From: Candidatus Brocadiia bacterium
GTDB taxonomy: Bacteria; Planctomycetota; MHYJ01; JACQXL01
Assembly: GCA_041658285.1 (NCBI GenBank)
Contig: JBBAAP010000002.1
Span: 44,252 to 108,251 of the forward strand
Reading direction: 5' to 3'
Length of the DNA: 64,000 nt
Shown one piece after another: positions 7,994-58,936 of the stretch. The notes below the pieces were generated by a model that was given only the letters and a program-made list of their open reading frames with translations, made no database searches and was not told the origin of the DNA. The first letter of the stretch is position 1. Every line of letters begins with the position of its first letter. A program made the translations under genes and the position numbers.

Positions 7994-8947
7994 CTATTTG
8001 GACTTGCCCGACCTGGGATGTGCTTTGTCGTAGACCTCTTTGAGCCGGGTAGTGGTGACGTGGGTATATATCTGGGTGGTAGAGATGCTCCGATGGCCAA
8101 GCAATTCCTGGACGCCGCGCAAATCGGCGCCGTGGTCCAACAGGTGCGTGGCAAACGTATGGCGTAAAGTATGCGGCGATATCTTGCGGTTATTCAGGCC
8201 GCTCAACCCGGCATAAAGCGTGATATTACGCCGGATGCTCCGGTCCGTCAGGTGTGCCGATTTGTGCCGGCTGTGGCTGACGAACAGAAACGAATTCAGT
8301 TCGACCGATTCGCCGCTGATTTGTTTGCGCTCGCTTAGATATTTCTCAATGGCCTTGACGGCGTAACTGCCGATGGGCACCAGCCGTTCCTTTTTCCCCT
8401 TGCCCAGCACATGAGCCACCGAGCTGGACAAATCCACATCCTTGATGCGCAGGTTGGCTATCTCGCTGACCCGCACCCCGCTGCTGTAAAGGAACTCCAT
8501 AATCGCCTCGTCCCGCAGTCCGATGATGCCCGTAGCATAAGCCTTTTTGCCCCTGATGACAGCCAGAGGCTCGAGCAGCATCTTGTTCATCTCCTGCTCG
8601 CTCAGGAACTCCGGTATCTTTTTGTCCAACCGCGGCTGGCGTATCAGAACCATCGGGTTACTTTCGATAAAACGGTTCTGAAGCAAGTACTTAAAAAACG
8701 ATTTAAGCGCGGCAATCTTGCGGGCGATGGACGCCTTCTGCAGGTTCACCTCCCGCATATGGAGCAGATAACTCCGAAGGGTCAGGTTGTCAATGGCCTT
8801 GGGGTCAGGGAAAACTTTGGCGTTACTGCTTTTGGCCACGAAGGTGATGAATTGGTCCAAGTCCTTGGCGTAAGCCCGGAGCGTTTCCGGCGAGTAATTC
8901 CGGTTGTATTGCAGGTGTTCCAGGAAATTCTTAACGTAATCGGCCAT
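7994..8947 (-). CDS. xerC: Tyrosine recombinase XerC/XerD
   Basis: The N-terminal core-binding region is LRAYAKDL. The C-terminal catalytic region is HTLRHTFATHLL...LLGHRSISTTQIYTHV with the catalytic Tyr. Confidence 0.8.
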   Translation of the reverse strand: MADYVKNFLEHLQYNRNYSPETLRAYAKDLDQFITFVAKSSNAKVFPDPKAIDNLTLRSYLLHMREVNLQKASIARKIAALKSFFKYLLQNRFIESNPMVLIRQPRLDKKIPEFLSEQEMNKMLLEPLAVIRGKKAYATGIIGLRDEAIMEFLYSSGVRVSEIANLRIKDVDLSSSVAHVLGKGKKERLVPIGSYAVKAIEKYLSERKQISGESVELNSFLFVSHSRHKSAHLTDRSIRRNITLYAGLSGLNNRKISPHTLRHTFATHLLDHGADLRGVQELLGHRSISTTQIYTHVTTTRLKEVYDKAHPRSGKSK

Positions 8948-10993: not shown

Positions 10994-11317
10994 CGTCCAT
11001 AGATTAACACGAATAAACACGAATGACTACTAATTTAGATATTTAATTTAAGTAAGCGGACCCGCCTGACTGACGCCCACCCGGATGAATATCCGTTCGG
11101 ACGGGTAGTCGGACAGGTTTAGCAGATATTGCAGATAAGTATAAATAATAAGGGCGCTGGGATTAGCCCAGCGCCCACCTTCGTGTCAATTCGAATTTAT
11201 TCGTGCATATTCGTGTTTATTCTAGGTATCCGCGTAACCAAATATTTATCGAAGTGAACACGCCATTCTTTCTTAGTGCTACTAGGAACAACGTGACGTA
11301 GAGGCAGTGCGTAGCCT

Positions 11318-11345
11318 CCTGGAAGGACTTAGATCCAGATGTACC
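11318..11345 (+). terminator. Candidate intrinsic terminator on the plus strand (CCCCGC-cttg-GCGGGG followed by a T-rich tract)
   Basis: A hairpin with a 6-7 bp GC stem is followed by TTAATCTTTTA. Both flanking genes are on the minus strand, so it would terminate an unannotated plus-strand transcript. Confidence 0.3.
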
Positions 11346-11447: not shown

Positions 11448-12572
11448 CTATTCAATGTATCCCTTAACCCATATGTTCGTAGATGTGAACACACCCGATT
11501 TGGTTATCAGCACCTTAATCATCCGTGTCCCATCAGTGGCAAGAGTGGCTTCCTTATACGCATTATTATTCACCCCTACCGTGTTCTGCCATATAAAATG
11601 TATAGTACTTGACCCATAATCCGCACCGGACCGTCTGCCAAGAACCGTGAGTATCTGCTCCATCCCGACCGGGACGCTCATTGCGTTCAACTGCATCTCC
11701 AATATTACAGCAGTCGCCGTAACCGGAATCACCGCCGACAGGTCTATGAGCTGGTCCACATCCGTCATCGAGTTCTCGGAGAACACCAAGGTTTGAGACG
11801 GCAACAGGGTCAACTGCATCCCGCCCGCACCGCCGGTAGGCGGAGCTATCCAATTGAATTTACCCGTCGCCGCATCGAAAGACAGAATCTGCCCGTCCGT
11901 AGGCGGAGCCAGGTTATAGAGCAGTTCGTGGTTGATGGATGCCAGCGCAATCTTGACCCAATCAACGGCCCGGTCGGCAATCTTTCCGTTGGTAATACTT
12001 GTCTCTGCCAACTTGTCTCCGGTCACAGCCAGGTCTGCTATCTCGTCCGTCGCCACTGGCGGAACGAGCGGCCTCGTGACACCGCCAGCCATCGGTTTCC
12101 ATTCCAGCTTGAGTTGTGCCGCATTGTATGTAGGAACCTCACCGTCTGCCGGAGAATCTATCGCCGCTAATTTGGTCGGGGTGACTTCGCCCGCGCCGAT
12201 TTTGGATGAAGTAACCGCGCCTTCGTTGAGTTTGATGGATGTAACCGAGTGGGTGTCCAATTTATCAGGGGTTATGGCGCCATCGGCGATTTTCTGAGCC
12301 ACTATCGCCCCATCGGCTATCTTAGCCGTACCAACGGCATTATCGGGCAAAGGCGTAAGGGTAATGTCCGGACCGAGCTTAGCCGCGGTCACGGCACCGT
12401 CGGAGATATCATCGGTCTGGACCTGCCCGGCTCCGATATCGGCTCCGGTAATGGTCTCATCCTTAATCTTAGCCGTGGTCACGGAATTATCGGCAATCTT
12501 ATCTTCCGTGACTGCCTGTTCCGAAATCTGGGGCGAGGTCACCTCGCCATTTGCGTATCTGTGTCTGAACAT
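11448..12572 (-). CDS. Phage tail-fibre-like repeat protein: about 12 tandem ~11 aa repeats (consensus I-x-D-G-A-V-T-x-x-K-I/L) with a C-terminal globular head domain
   Basis: The repeats run ...AVTAAKLGPD...AVGTAKIADGAIVAQKIADGAITPDKLDTHSVTSIKLNEGAVTSSKIGAGEVTPTKL. The start is set at the ATG at 12572, preceded by the Shine-Dalgarno sequence AAGGGGG. The ORF-table start at 12662 covers the motif region. Confidence 0.5.
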   Translation of the reverse strand: MFRHRYANGEVTSPQISEQAVTEDKIADNSVTTAKIKDETITGADIGAGQVQTDDISDGAVTAAKLGPDITLTPLPDNAVGTAKIADGAIVAQKIADGAITPDKLDTHSVTSIKLNEGAVTSSKIGAGEVTPTKLAAIDSPADGEVPTYNAAQLKLEWKPMAGGVTRPLVPPVATDEIADLAVTGDKLAETSITNGKIADRAVDWVKIALASINHELLYNLAPPTDGQILSFDAATGKFNWIAPPTGGAGGMQLTLLPSQTLVFSENSMTDVDQLIDLSAVIPVTATAVILEMQLNAMSVPVGMEQILTVLGRRSGADYGSSTIHFIWQNTVGVNNNAYKEATLATDGTRMIKVLITKSGVFTSTNIWVKGYIE

Positions 12573-12730
12573 ATAGTTAACCCCCTTTTTAACACGAATT
12601 ACACGAATAGGACTAATCCCGCTAATATTTTTTATTCGTGCCCTTCGTATTATTAGTAACATTCGAGTTCTAATTAAAGTGCGGTCGGGGACGCCCCGCC
12701 CGTGCGAAGCGTCCCACTCGCACTGCCATA

Positions 12731-13531
12731 CTAAATCAGCACTATCCTTGCCCTGAGTTTGAGCGCGCCGCTGTTGACGTCGCTTTCATACTGGAGCACA
12801 GAATCAGTGGCCGTACCTCCAACCACGAACGGTTTTACCGTTGCAGCCTTGAAGGAATTAGCCAGGTCAGTCAGCCTGGTGTTCTGGGCGGCCAGTTCGG
12901 TCGCTTCCATATCCGCCTTAATAATTGAGATGCCGGTAATAACCAGCAAACTCGTTACGGCTGACTTGAACTGCTGTCTCAATCCAGTTTTGGTGAAGTC
13001 GTAAGGCCCGCCGTTGACAACCTCCATATGGTTGGTCATCCGGTTGGCCCGGGCATCACCGGTCATCCAATAGGTAACCTGCGGGACAATCAAACCCCTG
13101 ATTCGGTCCCCGGTAATCCTAAGGAGTCCCTTAGCCACGCCATTGGCCCAACGGTCCTTGGCCGCGTTTACCTTACCTTTAAAGAGCTTAGCCACTACAC
13201 CATCAATGGTCTCGAAAGCCTGGTCCAGGTGCTCCCGAAACTTGGCATAGGCGTTGGTCAAGCCCTTGTAATGGGCCTGACGGATGTTAGATGCGCTCCG
13301 ACCCGACTTAGCCACGAACCCCGGCGCAACCATAGGTCCCCATTTCTGGTTGCCAGGTTCCGCGACCTTTGACTGGTATTCCCCGTCATCGGGCAGAATC
13401 TCCACTATCCGATCGTGCATACGCTGGGCGTTGTTAGTCAAACCCTCAACCCACCGGTCCGGCATATCGCCCGACGGCTCAATGCTCGGAGGTATCGTTA
13501 CCAAAATATCCAGTTTAATTTCGTCTGCCAT
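12731..13531 (-). CDS. Hypothetical protein co-oriented with the fibre-like gene, possibly structural
   Basis: This 266 aa ORF has the RBS GTGAGG. I recognise no motifs. Confidence 0.35.
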   Translation of the reverse strand: MADEIKLDILVTIPPSIEPSGDMPDRWVEGLTNNAQRMHDRIVEILPDDGEYQSKVAEPGNQKWGPMVAPGFVAKSGRSASNIRQAHYKGLTNAYAKFREHLDQAFETIDGVVAKLFKGKVNAAKDRWANGVAKGLLRITGDRIRGLIVPQVTYWMTGDARANRMTNHMEVVNGGPYDFTKTGLRQQFKSAVTSLLVITGISIIKADMEATELAAQNTRLTDLANSFKAATVKPFVVGGTATDSVLQYESDVNSGALKLRARIVLI

Positions 13532-13726
13532 AAAAACCTCACTACCGAAGATATATCATAATCAGCCCAGCCGAGCCGCCGCGCCTTGCTCACCGCTCAC
13601 AGTGCGGCGTGGCGCCGATGACGGCCTCGGCTGAACTGTGGATTCACTTACGGTTCTTCTTTCCTTCAAGGTAATCCAAAATAATCCCAATGACTACCTG
13701 GATTATCCTCCTCCAGAAACCTGACA

Positions 13727-14470
13727 TCATTTGAAACATATATTGTTCTCCTCCAGAAAATCATAGATTTCCTGTATAGGTACAATTCCGCCCATAGTAG
13801 TTATAAGTTGGTCTTTATAAACCCTGACCCAAACAGAAATACCGATGACCTCATAGGTAGAGGCGTTCCCGTCATTCGACGGGACTAACGCGAACACCGG
13901 ACCGCCTGAGTTACCCGGTAAAATAGGAGCCGATATTTCGCAATAACCCGGCTCGATTATTGAGATGATGCCGTATGAAGGTCGCACCTTTAAGCCAAGC
14001 GAGCATCCAACGGCATAAACCGGGGTAAATATGTAAGGGGTATAATTCCGCGGAGCCAGAGTAGCGGAATAATTACAAATTCCAGATTTCAGATTACAGA
14101 TTTTAATTAAAGCCAGGTCTTTGGCGGTATCGGTCACCAATACCGTGGCATCAATCTCAATGTATTCGGGGTAAAACAACTCTACGGTTACGATCGATTC
14201 GTTATCAACCACGTGAGCGGCCGTTATTATGTAACCGTTAATAATAACGCCTGAACCGCAAGAAAACCCGGCCTTTATCCTGACGGTGGTATAGAGCATA
14301 GACTCGTAAAGCCCCTCAAACGGATTAACCGGCCCAACCTGCACCGGAACCTCCTTAGACAGGTCAATAACAAAGGTCTCGCCTTCAGGCGGCTCAAAGA
14401 CGCACCCGCCGACCATCGCAATTGACAAAAACCAATAAATTAATATCCTTCTCACTTGTGGTGTAACCAT
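13727..14470 (-). CDS. Trypsin-like (S1, HtrA/DegS-like catalytic core) serine protease, probable lipoprotein, with no PDZ domain
   Basis: The signal peptide has a lipobox-like VGGC. The catalytic His is in ITAAHVV and the catalytic Ser in GNSGGPVF. Confidence 0.7.
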   Translation of the reverse strand: MVTPQVRRILIYWFLSIAMVGGCVFEPPEGETFVIDLSKEVPVQVGPVNPFEGLYESMLYTTVRIKAGFSCGSGVIINGYIITAAHVVDNESIVTVELFYPEYIEIDATVLVTDTAKDLALIKICNLKSGICNYSATLAPRNYTPYIFTPVYAVGCSLGLKVRPSYGIISIIEPGYCEISAPILPGNSGGPVFALVPSNDGNASTYEVIGISVWVRVYKDQLITTMGGIVPIQEIYDFLEENNICFK

Positions 14471-14473
14471 AAA

Positions 14474-14701
14474 TCACCTATCCTCTCCGAAAAAGTTATC
14501 CAGCCATTCCCAGCGCGAGGTATTGGCGCAGTCCATCGGTTCGCTTATTTTAGGCGTAACCGTCACCGGTCCAGCCTCGTTTTCCGGGAATAAGGCGTCA
14601 TAGCAATACCGGCACAGCCGGACCCGCCGACAGGCGAAGGATATGATATCCCATTCCCGGGGTAGCTCCTTACCGCATTCTTTACACATCTTTCTTTCCA
14701 T
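14474..14701 (-). CDS. Small zinc-ribbon protein (CxxC...CxxC)
   Basis: MCKECGKEL...CRYC. It is the first gene of the protease operon. Confidence 0.4.
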   Translation of the reverse strand: MERKMCKECGKELPREWDIISFACRRVRLCRYCYDALFPENEAGPVTVTPKISEPMDCANTSRWEWLDNFFGEDR

Positions 14702-15047
14702 ATATACCTACCTTTTTAGTGGCTGTTAGCAACTCCGATGACCATCGGAGTGGCGTTATCTGCCACTTATCCCGACTATTCCGTCGGGGCCGGGGGGCTC
14801 TTCACTCTCTCCCCCATATATACACCCGTCGAGAACCACGAATGTCACAGGAAAAATGAGAATTTTGTAAAAATAATTCAGAAAGTTTTATGCCAAAGGC
14901 ACCATGCCCGAGGCAGGCGGAGACGAAGATTAAGCCGATTTAGCCGACAGGGTAGATTCCTTGACATAACCGGTTCAATCCTGTATAGATTCACGCCTTA
15001 CCCCGCTCTATCCGTCTTCATCCAAGAGCGGGAGACAGTTTATTGTT

Positions 15048-15077
15048 GCGGGATAACCCGCCGTAAGGCTCTCGTGG
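15048..15077 (+). promoter_or_regulatory. Candidate ECF-sigma-type promoter (GGGATAAC-N15-CGTG) 57 nt upstream of the sigma gene. The element has a second copy at 59124-59152.
   Basis: AAC and CGT lie 15 nt apart. The 30-mer recurs with 28/30 identity at 59124. Confidence 0.3.
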
Positions 15078-15134
15078 CTCCTTTAGCGCCACTGCGAAAC
15101 TAACGGACATCCCGCTTTCAGCAGGATTCGGCTT

Positions 15135-15755
15135 ATGCAGCAAGACACAAGAAGCGATGAGCAGTTGGCACGGGCATTTAAACTGGGCGAGGACCGGGCT
15201 TTCGACGAGCTCTACCGCAGGTATCTCAACCGTCTGCGTTTTTATATTTTAAAAATCAGCTGGTTCAAGGACGACATCTACCTCGAAGAAGTACTCCAGC
15301 AAATATTTATCGTCGTCTGCCAGGGGATAAAAATCGGCAAATTCGCGCCCTGGGATTATGTGCCGTCCGAAAAGATGAGCGGTACCTTCCGACGCTGGAT
15401 TTTTACGGTGGCACGGATTGAATGCTACAAACAGGACGAAAAACGCTCCTCCGGGCCGGTGCTGATGCCCAAACAGATCGCCGACGCCCTGCCGGACATG
15501 TTGGCCGATATGCGGCCGGATGCGGTTGAAGAGGTGGAGTCGCATCAGCACTTGACAAAAAAATTGGAAATGATACTATCGCACCTGACGGCGGATGACC
15601 AAAAGCTCTTCGAGCTGAAAAACAAAGGCGTAAAATACCAGGATATACTAAACGAGCCGGAGTTCAAAAACATACGCCTGGGCCCGCTCAGGATGCGATA
15701 CTGCCGAATACTGGACTTGATAAAAGAGTTATTAAAGAAAGACGAACAAGAATGA
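15135..15755 (+). CDS. ECF-type RNA polymerase sigma factor
   Basis: Region 2 is FDELYRRYLNRLRFY...FRRWIFTVARIECYKQDEKR and matches the FxxWLxxIARN...D..R pattern. The C-terminal region-4-like HTH is GVKYQDIL...RMRYCRILDLIKELL. Confidence 0.6.
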   Translation: MQQDTRSDEQLARAFKLGEDRAFDELYRRYLNRLRFYILKISWFKDDIYLEEVLQQIFIVVCQGIKIGKFAPWDYVPSEKMSGTFRRWIFTVARIECYKQDEKRSSGPVLMPKQIADALPDMLADMRPDAVEEVESHQHLTKKLEMILSHLTADDQKLFELKNKGVKYQDILNEPEFKNIRLGPLRMRYCRILDLIKELLKKDEQE

Positions 15756-16087
15756 AAAAAGAAAAGCCCGTCAAAAAGACCGTCCGCCGGGACAGTTGCG
15801 CCAAATACAAAATGGACATCCTGGACTACGTCACCGGAGATATGACTTTCATAACCGCGCAAAAACAGAAAGCACTGCTTATACACGTCCGGAAATGCCC
15901 CAGATGCCAGCAGGCATATTTTGAGTATGAAAACATCCACGCCGCGGCCCGAACCATAGGACGGGCCAAAAACCCGGCCTTCAAGGCGAAAATGGACGCT
16001 ATGCTCGAAACCATCAAGAAAAAATGCGCCAACAAAGGCGACAAGCCGCCAAGCTGTTCCGATGACAAGCCCGACAATAAAAAATAG
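15752..16087 (+). CDS. Zinc-binding anti-sigma factor (ZAS family, RsrA-like)
   Basis: C16...H46-x3-C49-x2-C52 (HVRKCPRC) matches the ZAS motif. It overlaps the sigma gene by 4 nt, has no TM helix, and carries extra Cys at 82 and 92. Confidence 0.55.
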   Translation: MKKEKPVKKTVRRDSCAKYKMDILDYVTGDMTFITAQKQKALLIHVRKCPRCQQAYFEYENIHAAARTIGRAKNPAFKAKMDAMLETIKKKCANKGDKPPSCSDDKPDNKK

Positions 16088-16576
16088 GGGTTATAGGGGT
16101 ACTCCATACCCCTAATCCCGGTTATCGACACAACCTATAAGGATTATCAACATCTACAGTCCCGGTTATTGACACCCCTAATACCGGTTATCAATATTCC
16201 TAATCCCGGTTATCGATACCCCCAATCCCGGTTATCGATACCCCTAATCCCGGTTATCAACATCCCTAATCCCGGTTTTCGATACTCCCTGCCTAAGTAA
16301 CGGTTATCTCCTATACCTGTTATCGATATCCCCTGTCCGGGTTTATCACACCTCCTATATAAATGGCCTACATCCCCTATCCGGGTTTATCACTCATCCG
16401 ATATAAATGGCCTACATCCCCTATCCCAGTTATCGATACCCACTACCCGAGCAGTAACCATCTCCTATACCGGTTTTCGATACACCCTATGCCCGTTTTC
16501 GATACACCCAATCCCGATTTACGATACAGGGATTAGGGGTTAGGGGGGAGGGGGGTAGGTATCTCCCCCCCCTCCA
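16088..16576. repeat. Degenerate tandem array of about 19 units of a 22 bp repeat (consensus CCTAATCCCGGTTATCGATACC, palindromic core TATCGATA), ending in a G-rich inverted repeat (GGGATTAGGGGTTAGGGGGGAGGGGGG...CTCCCCCCCCTCC)
   Basis: Direct reading shows units adjacent with no spacers. The central units are near-identical and the flanks degenerate. The array lies between the convergent anti-sigma and GT2 genes. Confidence 0.9.
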
Positions 16577-57567: not shown

Positions 57568-58437
57568 CTATAATTGCAGATGTCTGAGTTGATTATCCGG
57601 CACGCGGAATCCCGACCAGTGCACGTATTCCTCGGTAGGCAGATTTTCGTATTGTTTCGGCGTGAGCGCCAGTATGAAACCGCCCTGAACGCTTATCTTG
57701 CGGTAATGCAGTTCGGCAAAGAACTTGTCATTGGGCATATCGGCGTGAATGCTCTTTAGCGTCTTAAAATCGTGGTAATCCTGGTTACTTCCGACGAAGC
57801 CGTCATAGGCGCTGTCTTTGACGTAATAAAGGTCTTTCCTCTTGTAATATTTATCCAACGCCTGGCTCCAAAAAAATATGCCTTTGACGCCGGTGGTGCC
57901 GTAGGAATATTTATGATCCAGCATATAACGGCTGACCTCGGTACGGATAAAGCGCCAGACTCCGGCAATCTTGGTAGCCGGCAGTTTGCCTTCCCTGACC
58001 AGCCGGTAAATCGTCCGGCGGTTGACGCCTAGCGCCTGGGCCACCTGATTCAAGGTCATCACCCCGCCCTCAAAGTTCATCCCTAAAACATGGCCGGGCA
58101 CATCGCGGCTATGAGTCAGGAATTGACGAACCTCTGACTGAAGAAACTGCCACCTGCCGCCTAACTTTACAGCGGGCAACTTCTTCACATTAATTAACCG
58201 ATAAATGGTAAACCGGCTTAGGCCCAGATATTCGCAGACCTCTTTCAGGGTCATCAGGCCGGGTTTAATAATGTATTTGGTTGGCGTTTTGTATACAAGC
58301 AGTTTCTCAACGTCCTTCTGTTCAAAACGCCACTGTCCGCCGATGCGCTTGGCAGGCAATTTCCCTGATTTGAGCAACCGGTAAACCGTGCGGGTAGAGA
58401 TACCCAGTTGTTTACAGACGTCATTTACAGTTAGCAT
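57568..58437 (-). CDS. DNA-binding protein with three tandem excisionase/MerR-type HTH domains and a ~140 aa uncharacterised C-terminal domain
   Basis: Three tandem copies of the LT(V/L)xxVxxxLG(I/L/V)SxxT(V/I)YRL(L/I)xxGKLPAxK(I/L)GGxWRF pattern. Confidence 0.6.
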   Translation of the reverse strand: MLTVNDVCKQLGISTRTVYRLLKSGKLPAKRIGGQWRFEQKDVEKLLVYKTPTKYIIKPGLMTLKEVCEYLGLSRFTIYRLINVKKLPAVKLGGRWQFLQSEVRQFLTHSRDVPGHVLGMNFEGGVMTLNQVAQALGVNRRTIYRLVREGKLPATKIAGVWRFIRTEVSRYMLDHKYSYGTTGVKGIFFWSQALDKYYKRKDLYYVKDSAYDGFVGSNQDYHDFKTLKSIHADMPNDKFFAELHYRKISVQGGFILALTPKQYENLPTEEYVHWSGFRVPDNQLRHLQL

Positions 58438-58582: not shown

Positions 58583-58936
58583 ACCTACACTACTACTACC
58601 CCCTGCCTACACCTCTACCACCCCTGGCCTACACCTCTACTACCTCTGGCCTGCACCTCTACTACCTCCGGCCTGCACCTCTACTACCTCCGGCCTACAC
58701 CTCTACTACCTCCAGCCTACACCTCTACTACCTCCAGCCTGCACCTCTACTACCTCCAGCCTACACCTCTACTACCCCCGGCCTACACCTCTACTACCTC
58801 CGGCCTTCACCTCTACTACCTCCGGCCTACACCTCTACTACCTCTGGCCTACACCTCTACTACCCCCGACCTACATCTATACTACCCCTGACTTACACCC
58901 ATATTACCTCCGGCTTACAGTCCTACCACTATCGGC
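58583..58936. repeat. Degenerate tandem array of about 16 units of a 22 bp pyrimidine-rich repeat (consensus CCTACACCTCTACTACCTCCGG)
   Basis: Direct reading shows near-identical central units and degenerate flanks, with no spacers. The six-frame ORFs here (58526..58891, 58546..58980) are translation artefacts of the repeat. Confidence 0.9.

What the first reader, a model, noticed from the sequence alone, without database searches (positions are those of the whole stretch)
11448..16087. A divergent pair: ECF sigma / ZAS anti-sigma versus a zinc-ribbon / S1 protease lipoprotein / hypothetical / fibre-like repeat operon
The 430 bp divergent region at 14702-15134 carries the candidate ECF promoter. 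On one side lie an ECF sigma and a cytoplasmic zinc anti-sigma with the full C..H-x3-C-x2-C redox motif (RsrA-like). On the other side lie a zinc-ribbon protein, a PDZ-less HtrA/DegS-core protease lipoprotein (GNSGGPVF), a hypothetical protein and a protein with about 12 phage-tail-fibre-like 11 aa repeats and a C-terminal head domain. A DegS-like protease beside an anti-sigma recalls regulated proteolysis circuits. The fibre-like protein in a non-prophage context could be an adhesin or a tailocin/contact-dependent component. Together this may be an envelope/thiol-stress module controlling a surface fibre.
Basis: inference. Interest (0 to 1): 0.55.

Follow-up and report, generated by a model that had tools for sequence, protein, structure and literature searches.

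The report
Multi-copy planctomycete receptor-fibre cassette
This locus is one of at least a dozen copies, in one uncultured planctomycete genome, of a small gene cassette that makes a short phage-type binding fibre and a partner protein of unknown fold, here under its own sigma/anti-sigma switch, and it resembles the fibre sets that predatory Bdellovibrio uses to recognise prey.

Summary
All six genes exist as described, and a seventh conserved 31-aa gene was missed. The sigma factor is a divergent but real ECF sigma. The anti-sigma is a soluble protein with an invariant C…HxxxCxxC motif. The protease is an exported, PDZ-less S1 enzyme. The fibre has 15 ten-residue repeats, homologous to phage tail-fibre shafts, and a beta-sandwich head.

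The locus is not a one-off stress module. It is one copy of a cassette family confined to Brocadiia-like Planctomycetota MAGs, with at least 13 fibre genes in the source MAG and about 10-13 copies in relatives.

- **Core:** the 266-aa protein followed by the fibre. The 266-aa protein gives a confident model with no Foldseek neighbour.
- **Mosaic fibres:** the fibre N-terminal type tracks the 266-aa subfamily exactly, while head types shuffle freely.
- **Head fold:** its closest solved structure is the tip of the Bdellovibrio Bd2133 MAT fibre.
- **Accessories:** protease, peptide, zinc ribbon and sigma/anti-sigma are variable. The sigma/anti-sigma pair accompanies four complete cassettes in the source MAG.
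- **DegS analogy:** unsupported, because the anti-sigma has no membrane segment and the protease tracks the 266-aa protein.

Best reading: a repertoire of tip-swappable receptor-binding fibres, each with a cognate docking protein and a private regulator. Where the fibre is displayed is not known.

The parts
11152..11176 (-). Terminator-like GC-rich hairpin plus T-rich tail, the likely end of the structural operon
11220..11333 (-). Degenerate relic of another fibre 3' end (ends ...GYLE-stop), a likely footprint of tip replacement by recombination
   Evidence: tblastn (44% identity to the last 39 aa). The DNA alignment shows mismatches that are not adenine-specific, so it is not DGR-like. A similar relic lies downstream of the fibre in L002.
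11448..12572 (-). Fibre gene, 374 aa from M31. It has a short conserved N-terminus (type A), 15 ten-residue repeats, and a C-terminal beta-sandwich head (about aa 254-374).
12731..13531 (-). 266-aa protein of an orphan family (subfamily Y1), the proposed cognate docking partner of the fibre N-terminus
13644..13739 (-). Conserved 31-aa hydrophobic/basic peptide gene (MFQMMSGFWRRIIQVVIGIILDYLEGKKNRK)
13727..14470 (-). Exported PDZ-less S1 (trypsin/HtrA-core) serine protease with a lipobox-like VGGC
14474..14701 (-). 75-aa zinc-ribbon protein (CxxC...CxxC)
14702..14822 (-). Structured 5' leader of the structural operon: a G-rich hairpin, a CCCGAC-GGAAUA-GUCGGG hairpin, and a long third hairpin before the ribosome-binding site
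   Evidence: Folds at -44.3 kcal/mol, z -3.7. It is conserved in L002, L058, L061, L037 and L032. There is no Rfam match.
14852..14864 (-). Conserved AATTCTCATTTTT box, 32-35 nt upstream of a TATATAT element
14961..14989 (+). Sigma-70-like promoter of the sigma operon (TTGACA, 17 nt, TATAGA). The TCCTTGAC core is conserved in L002 and L048.
   Evidence: Read from the sequence. The scan tool does not list it because the second hexamer ends in A.
15135..15755 (+). Divergent ECF-type sigma factor, 206 aa
15752..16087 (+). Soluble ZAS-type anti-sigma, 111 aa. Its start overlaps the sigma stop codon. This copy lacks the DUF2582 domain found in the paralogues.
16106..16528 (.). Tandem array with a 22-bp period (about 19 units) at the regulator-side boundary of the cassette

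Best explanation
The locus is one copy of a lineage-specific, multi-copy 'fibre cassette'.

Shown:
- The cassette core is the 266-aa protein followed by a short phage-type fibre.
- The fibre is a mosaic of a docking N-terminus, a 10-aa-repeat shaft homologous to phage tail fibres, and one of several interchangeable beta-sandwich heads.
- The N-terminal type always matches the subfamily of the adjacent 266-aa protein, while heads assort independently.
- The source MAG carries at least 13 fibre genes.

Inferred:
- The 266-aa protein is the platform or adaptor that holds the (probably trimeric) fibre by its N-terminus. The head binds a target ligand. The genome therefore keeps a repertoire of binding specificities that it renews by tip swapping, as phages and Bdellovibrio do.
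- In this copy the divergent ECF sigma, held by its soluble zinc anti-sigma, switches the structural operon on through the conserved promoter and leader. Each complete cassette of this MAG has its own divergent sigma/anti-sigma pair, which would allow the cassettes to be controlled separately.
- The exported S1 protease and the 31-aa peptide are accessory maturation, release or anchoring factors for the 266-aa protein and fibre. They are not anti-sigma processors.

Speculative: the fibres are displayed on the cell envelope for recognition of other cells, particles or prey, like Bdellovibrio MAT fibres.
For: Copy number and range:
- The 266-aa protein has 89 homologues, all from Planctomycetota or Brocadiia MAGs, with several per MAG.
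- 53 related loci were found in GTDB genomes, about 10-13 per MAG.
- The family has 211 clusters at 50% identity, nearly all 255-270 aa long.
- At least 13 fibre paralogues carry the WC980 locus-tag prefix.

Synteny: the fibre directly follows the 266-aa gene in 33 of 43 loci with enough downstream DNA.

Mosaicism:
- Three N-terminal types combine with at least six head types.
- The 266-aa subfamily predicts the N-terminal type in every one of the 32 paired loci (two type-B calls made by eye). Head type is independent of both, with ARI about 0.
- Relics of earlier 3' ends lie downstream of the fibre in the window and in L002.
- L059 has the same head with a different N-terminus and a different 221-aa upstream partner.

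Fibre nature:
- PHROG tail-fibre families match, as do 112 phage records annotated as tail fibre or host specificity protein.
- The head model has pLDDT of about 90. Its best PDB neighbours are the Bdellovibrio Bd2133 fibre tip entries: 8ok3 with TM 0.76 and rmsd 2.8 A, and 8ond with E 4.9e-6. Bd2133 belongs to a 21-member chimeric adhesin family (PMC10769870).

Regulation:
- The sigma profile matches ECF sigma structures, and the ZAS ligand residues are invariant.
- Four complete cassettes with sigma and ZAS occur in one MAG.
- The AATTCTCA box, TATATAT element and hairpin leader are shared by cassettes whose proteins are only 35-65% identical.

Protease link:
- All 20 homologues have export signals, while none of 34 fibres does.
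- Two family members are protease-266-aa fusions.
Against: - Neither the fibre nor the 266-aa protein has a recognisable signal peptide or membrane segment. Surface display therefore needs an unknown export route, or release by lysis.
- Linkage of the fibre N-terminal type with the 266-aa subfamily could reflect physical adjacency of the DNA (recombination breakpoints inside the fibre gene) rather than protein contact.
- 266-aa genes without a fibre exist in housekeeping contexts, so this protein has a role that does not need a fibre.
- The sigma/anti-sigma pair is absent from most cassettes in other MAGs (4 of 29).
- No sigma-specific promoter motif could be assigned. The conserved box also occurs upstream of fibre-less copies with no detected sigma.
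- Trimerisation, ligand binding and expression are all untested.
Confidence: 0.5

Rival explanations
1. The cassettes encode alternative receptor-binding fibres and their adaptors for a phage-tail-like particle (tailocin, extracellular contractile injection system, gene transfer agent or a resident phage) encoded elsewhere in the genome. The particle is assembled in the cytoplasm and released by lysis, so no signal peptides are needed.
For: - The fibre shaft is homologous to phage tail fibres.
- Neither the fibre nor the 266-aa protein has an export signal.
- A docking end matched to a partner protein, with swappable tips, is the logic of phage receptor-binding proteins.
- Eight of 50 members of the 266-aa family weakly match one PHROG of unknown function (best E 4e-4).
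Against: - No other phage or tail gene lies next to any of the roughly 60 loci inspected.
- The 266-aa protein has no match in 50,697 phage genomes.
- The pattern-limited IMG/VR viral scans found no relative of the 266-aa protein or of the fibre C-terminal 205 aa.
- The 266-aa model has no neighbour among predicted viral structures.
- Thirteen or more scattered fibre cassettes, each with an exported protease and a private sigma factor, are not known for any tailocin or injection system.
- The rest of the genome could not be searched.
Confidence: 0.2
2. One reading: an envelope or thiol-stress circuit. A DegS-like protease relays a signal by cleaving the anti-sigma, which releases the ECF sigma to induce a surface fibre.
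For: - The ZAS motif C...HxxxCxxC is present and invariant.
- The protease core resembles HtrA/DegS.
- The sigma pair and the operon are adjacent and co-conserved in several cassettes.
Against: - The anti-sigma has no membrane segment (highest 19-residue hydropathy 1.28), whereas the protease is exported in 20 of 20 homologues. Enzyme and proposed substrate are therefore in different compartments.
- The protease lacks the PDZ sensor that defines DegS.
- The protease occurs in many cassettes with no sigma pair and is fused to the 266-aa protein in two family members.
- The paralogous anti-sigmas carry a DUF2582 winged-helix domain rather than a periplasmic sensor.
- A ZAS motif does not by itself imply redox sensing (established knowledge of ChrR and RslA).
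Confidence: 0.06
3. The cassettes are an anti-phage or competition device. Examples would be fibres that mask or mimic receptors, decoys for phage proteins, or a fibre-targeted toxin (bacteriocin-like) in which the helical 266-aa protein is the effector.
For: - Many paralogous cassettes sit next to restriction-modification, OLD-type ATPase, toxin-antitoxin and nuclease genes.
- High copy number with rapid tip exchange is typical of arms-race loci.
- The protease domain weakly matches protease domains of defence proteins.
Against: - No PADLOC system-level match, and nothing for the 266-aa protein.
- The window copy lies among housekeeping and polysaccharide genes.
- No immunity-like gene is consistently present.
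- The 266-aa protein has no membrane-insertion or enzymatic signature.
Confidence: 0.12
4. The cassettes are decaying prophage remnants, or cargo of an uncharacterised mobile element, with no present function for the cell.
For: - The fibre shaft is of phage origin.
- Relic gene fragments are present.
- Repeat arrays flank the cassettes and neighbouring cargo is variable.
Against: - All genes are intact in dozens of copies whose proteins have diverged to 35-65% identity while keeping a constant length of 264-270 aa and invariant residues. This indicates long-term purifying selection.
- Gene order and the promoter/leader are conserved.
- No integrase or transposase is consistently adjacent. The XerC/D-like gene at 7994-8947 sits in a RuvC / DNA polymerase III housekeeping context.
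Confidence: 0.07

Closest known systems
Bdellovibrio bacteriovorus MAT (mosaic adhesive trimer) fibres, e.g. Bd2133 (Caulton et al. 2024, PMC10769870)
   Same: - A cell-encoded, non-prophage, multi-copy family (21 in HD100; at least 13 here) of phage-like fibres.
- A conserved attachment end and chimeric, swappable tips.
- The window fibre's head is structurally closest to the Bd2133 beta-sandwich tip.
   Different: - MAT proteins are about 1000 aa with a signal peptide and a conserved ~130-aa N-terminal domain, and many end in an S74 chaperone-protease.
- The fibres here are 280-460 aa with no signal peptide and only a ~10-aa conserved N-terminus.
- The attachment function appears to be supplied in trans by a separate 266-aa protein.
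- A separate exported S1 protease is encoded, and some cassettes have a private sigma/anti-sigma pair.
- Sequence identity to Bd2133 is only 16%.
Phage tail-fibre / receptor-binding-protein modules (T7-like cyanophage tail fibres, 'host specificity protein J' repeats)
   Same: - Homologous 10-aa-repeat shaft.
- The N-terminus is matched to a partner protein while the C-terminal tips recombine.
- Relic 3' ends are left by tip replacement.
   Different: - No virion, tail or packaging genes nearby.
- The partner protein and the head are absent from phage genomes and viral contigs.
- Regulation is by an ECF-type sigma factor, and an exported protease is part of the operon.
ECF sigma / ZAS anti-sigma pairs (SigR-RsrA, SigW-RsiW, SigE-ChrR)
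   Same: - Overlapping sigma and anti-sigma genes.
- Sigma-2 and sigma-4 regions align with solved ECF sigma factors.
- The HxxxCxxC motif with an upstream Cys is invariant.
- The anti-sigma is soluble, like RsrA.
   Different: - Too divergent to reach the curated family thresholds.
- The anti-sigma paralogues carry a C-terminal DUF2582 winged-helix domain.
- The sigma operon has a housekeeping-type promoter, with no obvious autoregulated ECF promoter.
- Several paralogous pairs exist in the genome (four seen so far), each tied to its own fibre cassette.
HtrA/DegS/DegP family serine proteases
   Same: Trypsin-like catalytic core with the GNSGGP motif, and export to the envelope.
   Different: - No PDZ domain.
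- Scores are far below every family equivalog cut-off (50.7 bits against 416 for TIGR02037).
- It is genetically tied to the 266-aa protein (fusions), not to a membrane anti-sigma.

Membership tests
ECF (group IV) sigma-70 factors | Only sigma-2 and sigma-4 regions, alignable over the full length to known ECF sigma factors | tested here: met
   A profile of eight paralogues matches solved ECF sigma factors over profile positions 6-197 (8z6g E 1.6e-10; 1or7 sigma-E E 1.7e-8).
ECF (group IV) sigma-70 factors | Reaches the curated thresholds of the family models (TIGR02937, Pfam Sigma70_r2/r4) | tested here: not met
   TIGR02937 scores 34.2 bits against a cut-off of 42.9. Sigma70_r2 scores 13.1 bits against 24. 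This is a divergent member.
ECF (group IV) sigma-70 factors | Directs transcription from a cognate promoter, usually including its own | not testable with these tools
   Only a sigma-70-like promoter is seen upstream of the sigma gene, and a conserved box plus leader upstream of the divergent operon.
ZAS (zinc-binding) anti-sigma factors | HxxxCxxC motif with an upstream Cys or His ligand in an N-terminal anti-sigma domain, encoded next to the sigma gene | tested here: met
   C16, H45, C49 and C52 are invariant in six paralogues. The profile hits RsiW at E 1.5e-4. The gene overlaps the sigma stop codon.
ZAS (zinc-binding) anti-sigma factors | Redox-sensitive release of sigma (RsrA type) | not testable with these tools
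   TIGR03988 (RsrA) scores only 12.7 bits against a cut-off of 62.5. The motif alone does not show redox sensing.
DegS-type regulated proteolysis of an anti-sigma | A membrane-spanning anti-sigma with a periplasmic domain that the protease can reach | tested here: not met
   No hydrophobic segment in any anti-sigma paralogue (highest 19-residue hydropathy 1.28).
DegS-type regulated proteolysis of an anti-sigma | A PDZ sensor domain on the protease | tested here: not met
   Only the Trypsin_2 and Trypsin domains are found in the 247-aa protein.
S1 (chymotrypsin-fold) serine peptidases | His-Asp-Ser triad in a trypsin-like domain above the family threshold | tested here: met
   PF13365 scores 56.3 bits against a cut-off of 27.6. 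The AAHV, DLALI and GNSGGP motifs are read from the sequence.
Bdellovibrio MAT fibre family | Signal peptide followed by the conserved ~130-aa beta-rich N-terminal domain | tested here: not met
   None of 34 fibres has an N-terminal hydrophobic segment. The repeats begin at about residue 10. The family definition is taken from PMC10769870.
Bdellovibrio MAT fibre family | A multi-copy, cell-encoded family with chimeric tips, including the Bd2133-type beta-sandwich tip | tested here: met
   At least 13 paralogues, at least six head types, and a head model matching 8ok3 at TM 0.76.
Bdellovibrio MAT fibre family | Homotrimeric fibre displayed on the cell surface | not testable with these tools
   Only monomer prediction was possible.
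Phage tail fibres | Sequence homology to virion fibre proteins | tested here: met
   phrog_892 at E 6.4e-30. There are 112 phage records, with the shaft only at about 35% identity.
Phage tail fibres | Encoded within a phage or prophage structural module | tested here: not met
   No other virion gene is present in the window region or in about 60 related loci.
Diversity-generating retroelement target | A template repeat differing from the variable repeat at adenines, with a reverse transcriptase nearby | tested here: not met
   The downstream relic differs at all base types, and no reverse transcriptase is present in the locus.

The most novel reading that the evidence does not exclude
A cell-owned recognition system of a new design. 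It would comprise a dozen or more interchangeable phage-derived receptor-binding fibres, each docked on a protein with a previously unseen fold and each wired to its own orthogonal ECF sigma/anti-sigma switch and structured leader RNA. An uncultured planctomycete could then choose which binding specificity to display, for prey, partner or particle recognition. The 22-bp-period arrays would mark the cassette boundary where new regulators and cargo are inserted.
Probability: 0.3. Interest if true: 0.8.

Novelty: new variant of a known kind. Interest (0 to 1): 0.62.

Why it matters
Cell-encoded repertoires of chimeric phage-like fibres have so far been described experimentally only in the predator Bdellovibrio. 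A structurally related but differently built repertoire in an unrelated, uncultured planctomycete lineage suggests two things. Domesticating phage receptor-binding modules for cellular recognition may be a recurrent strategy. These groundwater and sediment planctomycetes may also engage in specific cell-cell or cell-particle contact, possibly predation or attachment.

The cassette differs from the Bdellovibrio design in three ways:
- the docking protein is supplied in trans;
- the protease is a separate exported enzyme;
- some copies carry a private sigma factor.

The locus also offers three things for further work. One is an orphan protein family (211 clusters) with a confident model and no Foldseek neighbour. 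Another is a set of naturally orthogonal ECF sigma/anti-sigma pairs with a shared promoter architecture. The third is a panel of natural head domains that could be tested for ligand specificity.

Tried and rejected
1. **Capsid or encapsulin idea for the 266-aa protein** (its length, with a protease and a fibre beside it). Rejected: the model is mostly helical and has no Foldseek neighbour in PDB or BFVD (best E 0.65, TM at most 0.18). There is also no hit in Pfam, NCBIfam, PADLOC or PDB sequences.
2. **DGR-type diversification of the fibre tip.** The downstream copy of the 3' end is a degenerate relic with mismatches at all base types.
3. **Mobile element bounded by repeats or driven by the nearby recombinase.** No flanking direct repeats were found. 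The recombinase is XerC/D-like and lies in a housekeeping neighbourhood.
4. **Known defence system.** PADLOC gives only generic protease-domain hits.
5. **Known RNA family for the leader or the arrays.** No Rfam match at E up to 1.
6. **Consensus structure for the leader.** RNAalifold on six leaders supported only the middle hairpin, because indels spoil the alignment. The compensatory changes in the outer stem of the third hairpin are read by eye only.
7. **Common unit for the 22-bp arrays.** The units are no more alike than random sequences.
8. **Sigma homologues.** The word-indexed search found only the protein itself, so the sigma census rests on loci fetched through the 266-aa protein and the fibres.
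10. **The single PDB sequence hit of the fibre (9eg4 'orf16').** It belongs to the capsid entry of Legionella phage LME-1 and covers only the repeats.

Full report
**Observation.** The ORF map confirms six genes at the stated coordinates.

- On the minus strand lie a 75-aa CxxC...CxxC protein (14474-14701), a 247-aa S1 protease (13727-14470), a 266-aa protein (12731-13531) and the fibre (ORF 11448-12662).
- On the plus strand lie a 206-aa sigma-like protein (15135-15755) and a 111-aa protein (15752-16087) whose start overlaps the sigma stop codon.
- The protease matches Trypsin_2 (E 7.7e-15), has no PDZ domain, and carries the AAHV, DLALI and GNSGGP motifs.
- The public gene call on the source contig (ENA ERZ27247322, k141_428435) adds a 31-aa ORF at 13644-13739. 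It also starts the fibre at M31, giving 374 aa from 12572. An AAGGGGG ribosome-binding site precedes that ATG.
- The 31-aa peptide is nearly identical in the paralogues: MF(Q/R/K)MMSGFWRRII....
- The fibre repeats have a period of exactly 10 residues. There are 15 units in blocks of 6+6+3, and identity at lag 10 is 23% against about 5% background.

**Sigma and anti-sigma.**

- On its own the sigma is sub-threshold: TIGR02937 scores 34.2 bits against 42.9, and PRK12513 gives E 2.3e-12.
- An alignment of eight paralogues matches solved ECF sigma factors over their whole length (E 1.6e-10). It is therefore a divergent but genuine ECF-type sigma.
- In six anti-sigma paralogues C16, H45, C49 and C52 are invariant. 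Their profile matches the RsiW anti-sigma domain (E 1.5e-4).
- In the five longer paralogues the profile also matches DUF2582 winged-helix structures (E 1.5e-9).
- No paralogue has a hydrophobic segment. The anti-sigma is cytoplasmic.

**A multi-copy cassette.**

- The 266-aa protein has 89 word-sharing homologues, all from Planctomycetota or 'Candidatus Brocadiia' MAGs. Their lengths are 264-270 aa and there are several per MAG.
- A pattern scan of one genome per GTDB species returned 53 loci, with about 10-13 per MAG for three of the MAGs.
- An exhaustive profile search of 1.84 billion representatives found 211 clusters, almost all 255-270 aa long. The one named distant member checked is again planctomycetal.
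- The fibre is 100% identical to WC980_02235 of a 'Candidatus Brocadiia bacterium' MAG. That MAG holds at least 13 fibre paralogues.

**Census.** Iterated HMMs over 53 loci holding a 266-aa gene gave these frequencies:

| Gene | Loci with it / loci with enough flanking DNA |
|---|---|
| Fibre directly downstream of the 266-aa gene | 33 / 43 |
| Protease | 19 / 43 |
| 31-aa peptide | 13 / 50 |
| Zinc-ribbon protein | 15 / 39 |
| Sigma | 4 / 29 (six loci in all) |

- The core is the 266-aa gene plus the fibre. Everything else is accessory.
- Inside the source MAG the complete layout recurs in four cassettes: window, L002, L058 and L061. That layout is ZAS(-DUF2582) and sigma, divergent from (zinc ribbon), protease, (peptide), the 266-aa gene and the fibre.
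- In other MAGs the upstream position is often taken by small ORFs with weak similarity to sigma region 4 or LuxR-type HTH domains.

**Mosaic fibres and the docking inference.**

- Fibre N-termini fall into three types: A (M.YRRRYF.GQVTTP), B (MSLKPLEVKT) and C (MARTLYDR.NEIK). The C-terminal 60-110 residues fall into at least six unrelated head types, and every N-terminal type combines with several heads.
- Clustering the adjacent 266-aa proteins gives four subfamilies that predict the N-terminal type with no mismatch among 32 pairs: Y1 and Y2 pair with A, Y3 with B, and Y4 with C. Two of the Y3 fibres (L020, L041) escaped the automatic classifier and were assigned to type B by eye.
- Head type is independent of both the N-terminal type and the subfamily (ARI -0.05 and -0.03).
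- L059 carries the window's head type on a different N-terminus, behind a different 221-aa partner.
- Degenerate relics of a fibre 3' end lie just downstream of the fibre gene in the window (11220-11333) and in L002.
- This is the pattern of phage receptor-binding modules, with a docking end matched to its partner and tips exchanged by recombination. The caveat is that simple linkage of neighbouring DNA would give the same association.

**Structures.**

- The 266-aa protein gives a confident model (pLDDT 91.4, pTM 0.76). It is mostly helical with a small sheet formed by its N- and C-terminal strands.
- That model has no Foldseek neighbour in PDB or BFVD (best E 0.65, TM at most 0.18). The family has no PDB sequence hit.
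- It has no match in 50,697 phage genomes, and none was found by the pattern-limited scan of IMG/VR.
- The fibre's C-terminal 205 residues model as a disordered shaft and an eight-strand sandwich with pLDDT of about 90.
- The best PDB matches of that head are the C-terminal domains of the Bdellovibrio bacteriovorus Bd2133 fibre (8ond E 4.9e-6; 8ok3 TM 0.76, rmsd 2.8 A, 16% identity). Generic jelly-roll and CBM folds follow.
- Bd2133 belongs to the 21-member MAT family of chimeric, surface-displayed, phage-like adhesins. Its tip was described as a new fold (PMC10769870).
- The shaft, but not the head, is homologous to tail-fibre and host-specificity proteins in 112 phage records.

**Protease.**

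- All 20 full-length homologues start with a hydrophobic export segment. Only some of them, including the window copy, have a lipobox-like Cys.
- None of 34 fibres has such a segment. Only two of the 53 266-aa ORFs do, and these are probably over-long ORF calls.
- Two family members are fusions of a trypsin-like domain and the 266-aa domain (P0232 and P0243).
- Together with the soluble anti-sigma, this argues against a DegS-like circuit. It ties the protease to the structural proteins, although how cytoplasmic-looking substrates meet an exported enzyme is unexplained.

**Regulatory DNA and RNA.**

- The sigma operon is preceded by TTGACA, 17 nt and TATAGA (14961-14989). Its TCCTTGAC core is shared by L002 and L048.
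- Upstream of the structural operon, five cassettes share an AATTCTCA(T)TTT box, then 32-35 nt, a TATATAT-like element and a G-rich hairpin. The proteins of these cassettes are only 35-65% identical.
- The 8-mer lies 100-320 nt upstream of a cassette's first recognised gene, on the coding strand, in eight places: seven among the fetched loci plus the window. About 0.25 would be expected there by chance.
- The 121-nt leader folds at -44.3 kcal/mol (z -3.7) and has no Rfam match.
- Its middle hairpin keeps pairing through double changes (CCCGAC/GUCGGG against CCCGCG/CGCGGG).
- Which factor reads the box is unknown. The box also occurs upstream of three 266-aa genes with no sigma detected nearby (L018, L028, L036), of which L018 and L036 lack a fibre. 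No canonical ECF promoter could be assigned.

**Mechanism and ranking.**

- Shown: the multi-copy cassette, the mosaic fibres, the link between partner subfamily and N-terminal type, a genuine ECF/ZAS pair, the exported protease, and the conserved cis elements.
- Inferred: the 266-aa protein docks the fibre, the sigma drives the divergent operon, and the protease and peptide act in maturation or anchoring.
- Speculative: display on the cell envelope for target recognition, as with MAT fibres.
- Main rival (about 0.2): the cassettes supply fibres for a tail-like particle encoded elsewhere. The lack of export signals favours it. The absence of any tail gene near about 60 loci, and of the partner protein from phage data, argues against it.
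- Other rivals: defence or bacteriocin-like roles (about 0.12), inert remnants (about 0.07) and the DegS-type stress circuit (about 0.06).

**Verdict.** The locus is a new variant of the 'chimeric phage-like fibre repertoire' known from Bdellovibrio. It is built differently and sits in an unrelated, uncultured lineage. Interest is 0.62.

Noticed in passing
window 16106-16528; also L002 4149-4441, L032 2857-3215, L050 4335-4615, L052 4143-4454, L053 833-1125, L010 6-262, L041 155-517 and others: Tandem arrays with a strict 22-bp period (also 44, 66 or 88 bp) lie on the regulator side of the cassettes. Seventeen arrays of at least 5 units are upstream and none is downstream of the fibre. Unit sequences are unrelated between loci, so only the period is conserved. 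In some loci restriction-modification, ATPase or kinase genes sit between the array and the cassette.
   Followed up: partly
window 57568-58437 (-) and 58584-58919: A second 22-bp array (15 units of CCTACACCTCTACTACCTCCGG) lies directly upstream of a 289-aa protein made of at least three tandem HTH_17 (excisionase/MerR-like) domains. A tandem HTH protein next to a tandem array suggests a binding pair.
   Followed up: no
window 11220-11333 (-); L002 9958-10190: A degenerate copy of the last ~35 codons of a fibre gene (ending GYLE-stop) lies downstream of the intact fibre gene. It is probably left by tip replacement and is not DGR-like.
   Followed up: yes
L018, L022, L036, L045, L048 (also L031, L033): A subgroup of the 266-aa family ('MFTKKFELKLYVP...') stands alone, with no fibre or recognised protease, in housekeeping neighbourhoods. 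In L048 it still faces a sigma gene. In L018 a divergent trypsin-like ORF lies upstream.
   Followed up: partly
L059 7300-9380: A fibre with the same head as the window's has a different N-terminus. It follows a 221-aa protein unrelated to the 266-aa family, which may be a second kind of docking partner.
   Followed up: no
L005, L016, L019, L020, L042, L043, L049, L023, L052, L056: Many paralogous cassettes sit beside DNA methylase/restriction genes, OLD-type AAA ATPases, toxin-antitoxin-like genes, a ParB-like nuclease, a BRO-N protein and an excisionase-type HTH. These are variable, island-like neighbourhoods. The gene identities were read by eye from the translations and were not scanned.
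   Followed up: no
P0232 (610 aa), P0243 (541 aa): Two members of the 266-aa family have an N-terminal trypsin-like protease domain fused to the 266-aa domain. These could be true fusions or read-through gene calls.
   Followed up: partly
window 12573-12730 and 13532-13643 (-); L037 1173-1261 and 2234-2320: Every intercistronic gap of the operon holds a strong GC-rich hairpin followed by a TAAGAGAGGT-type ribosome-binding site. The 3' two-thirds of the leader model recurs before several genes of the cassettes. These may be processing or stability elements.
   Followed up: partly
L002 5756-6631 (-); L058 3422-5133 (-): Extra genes with no Pfam match, or only a faint one, lie between the sigma gene and the structural operon in two paralogous cassettes of the same MAG: a 291-aa protein in L002, and 268-, 171- and 141-aa proteins in L058.
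   Followed up: no
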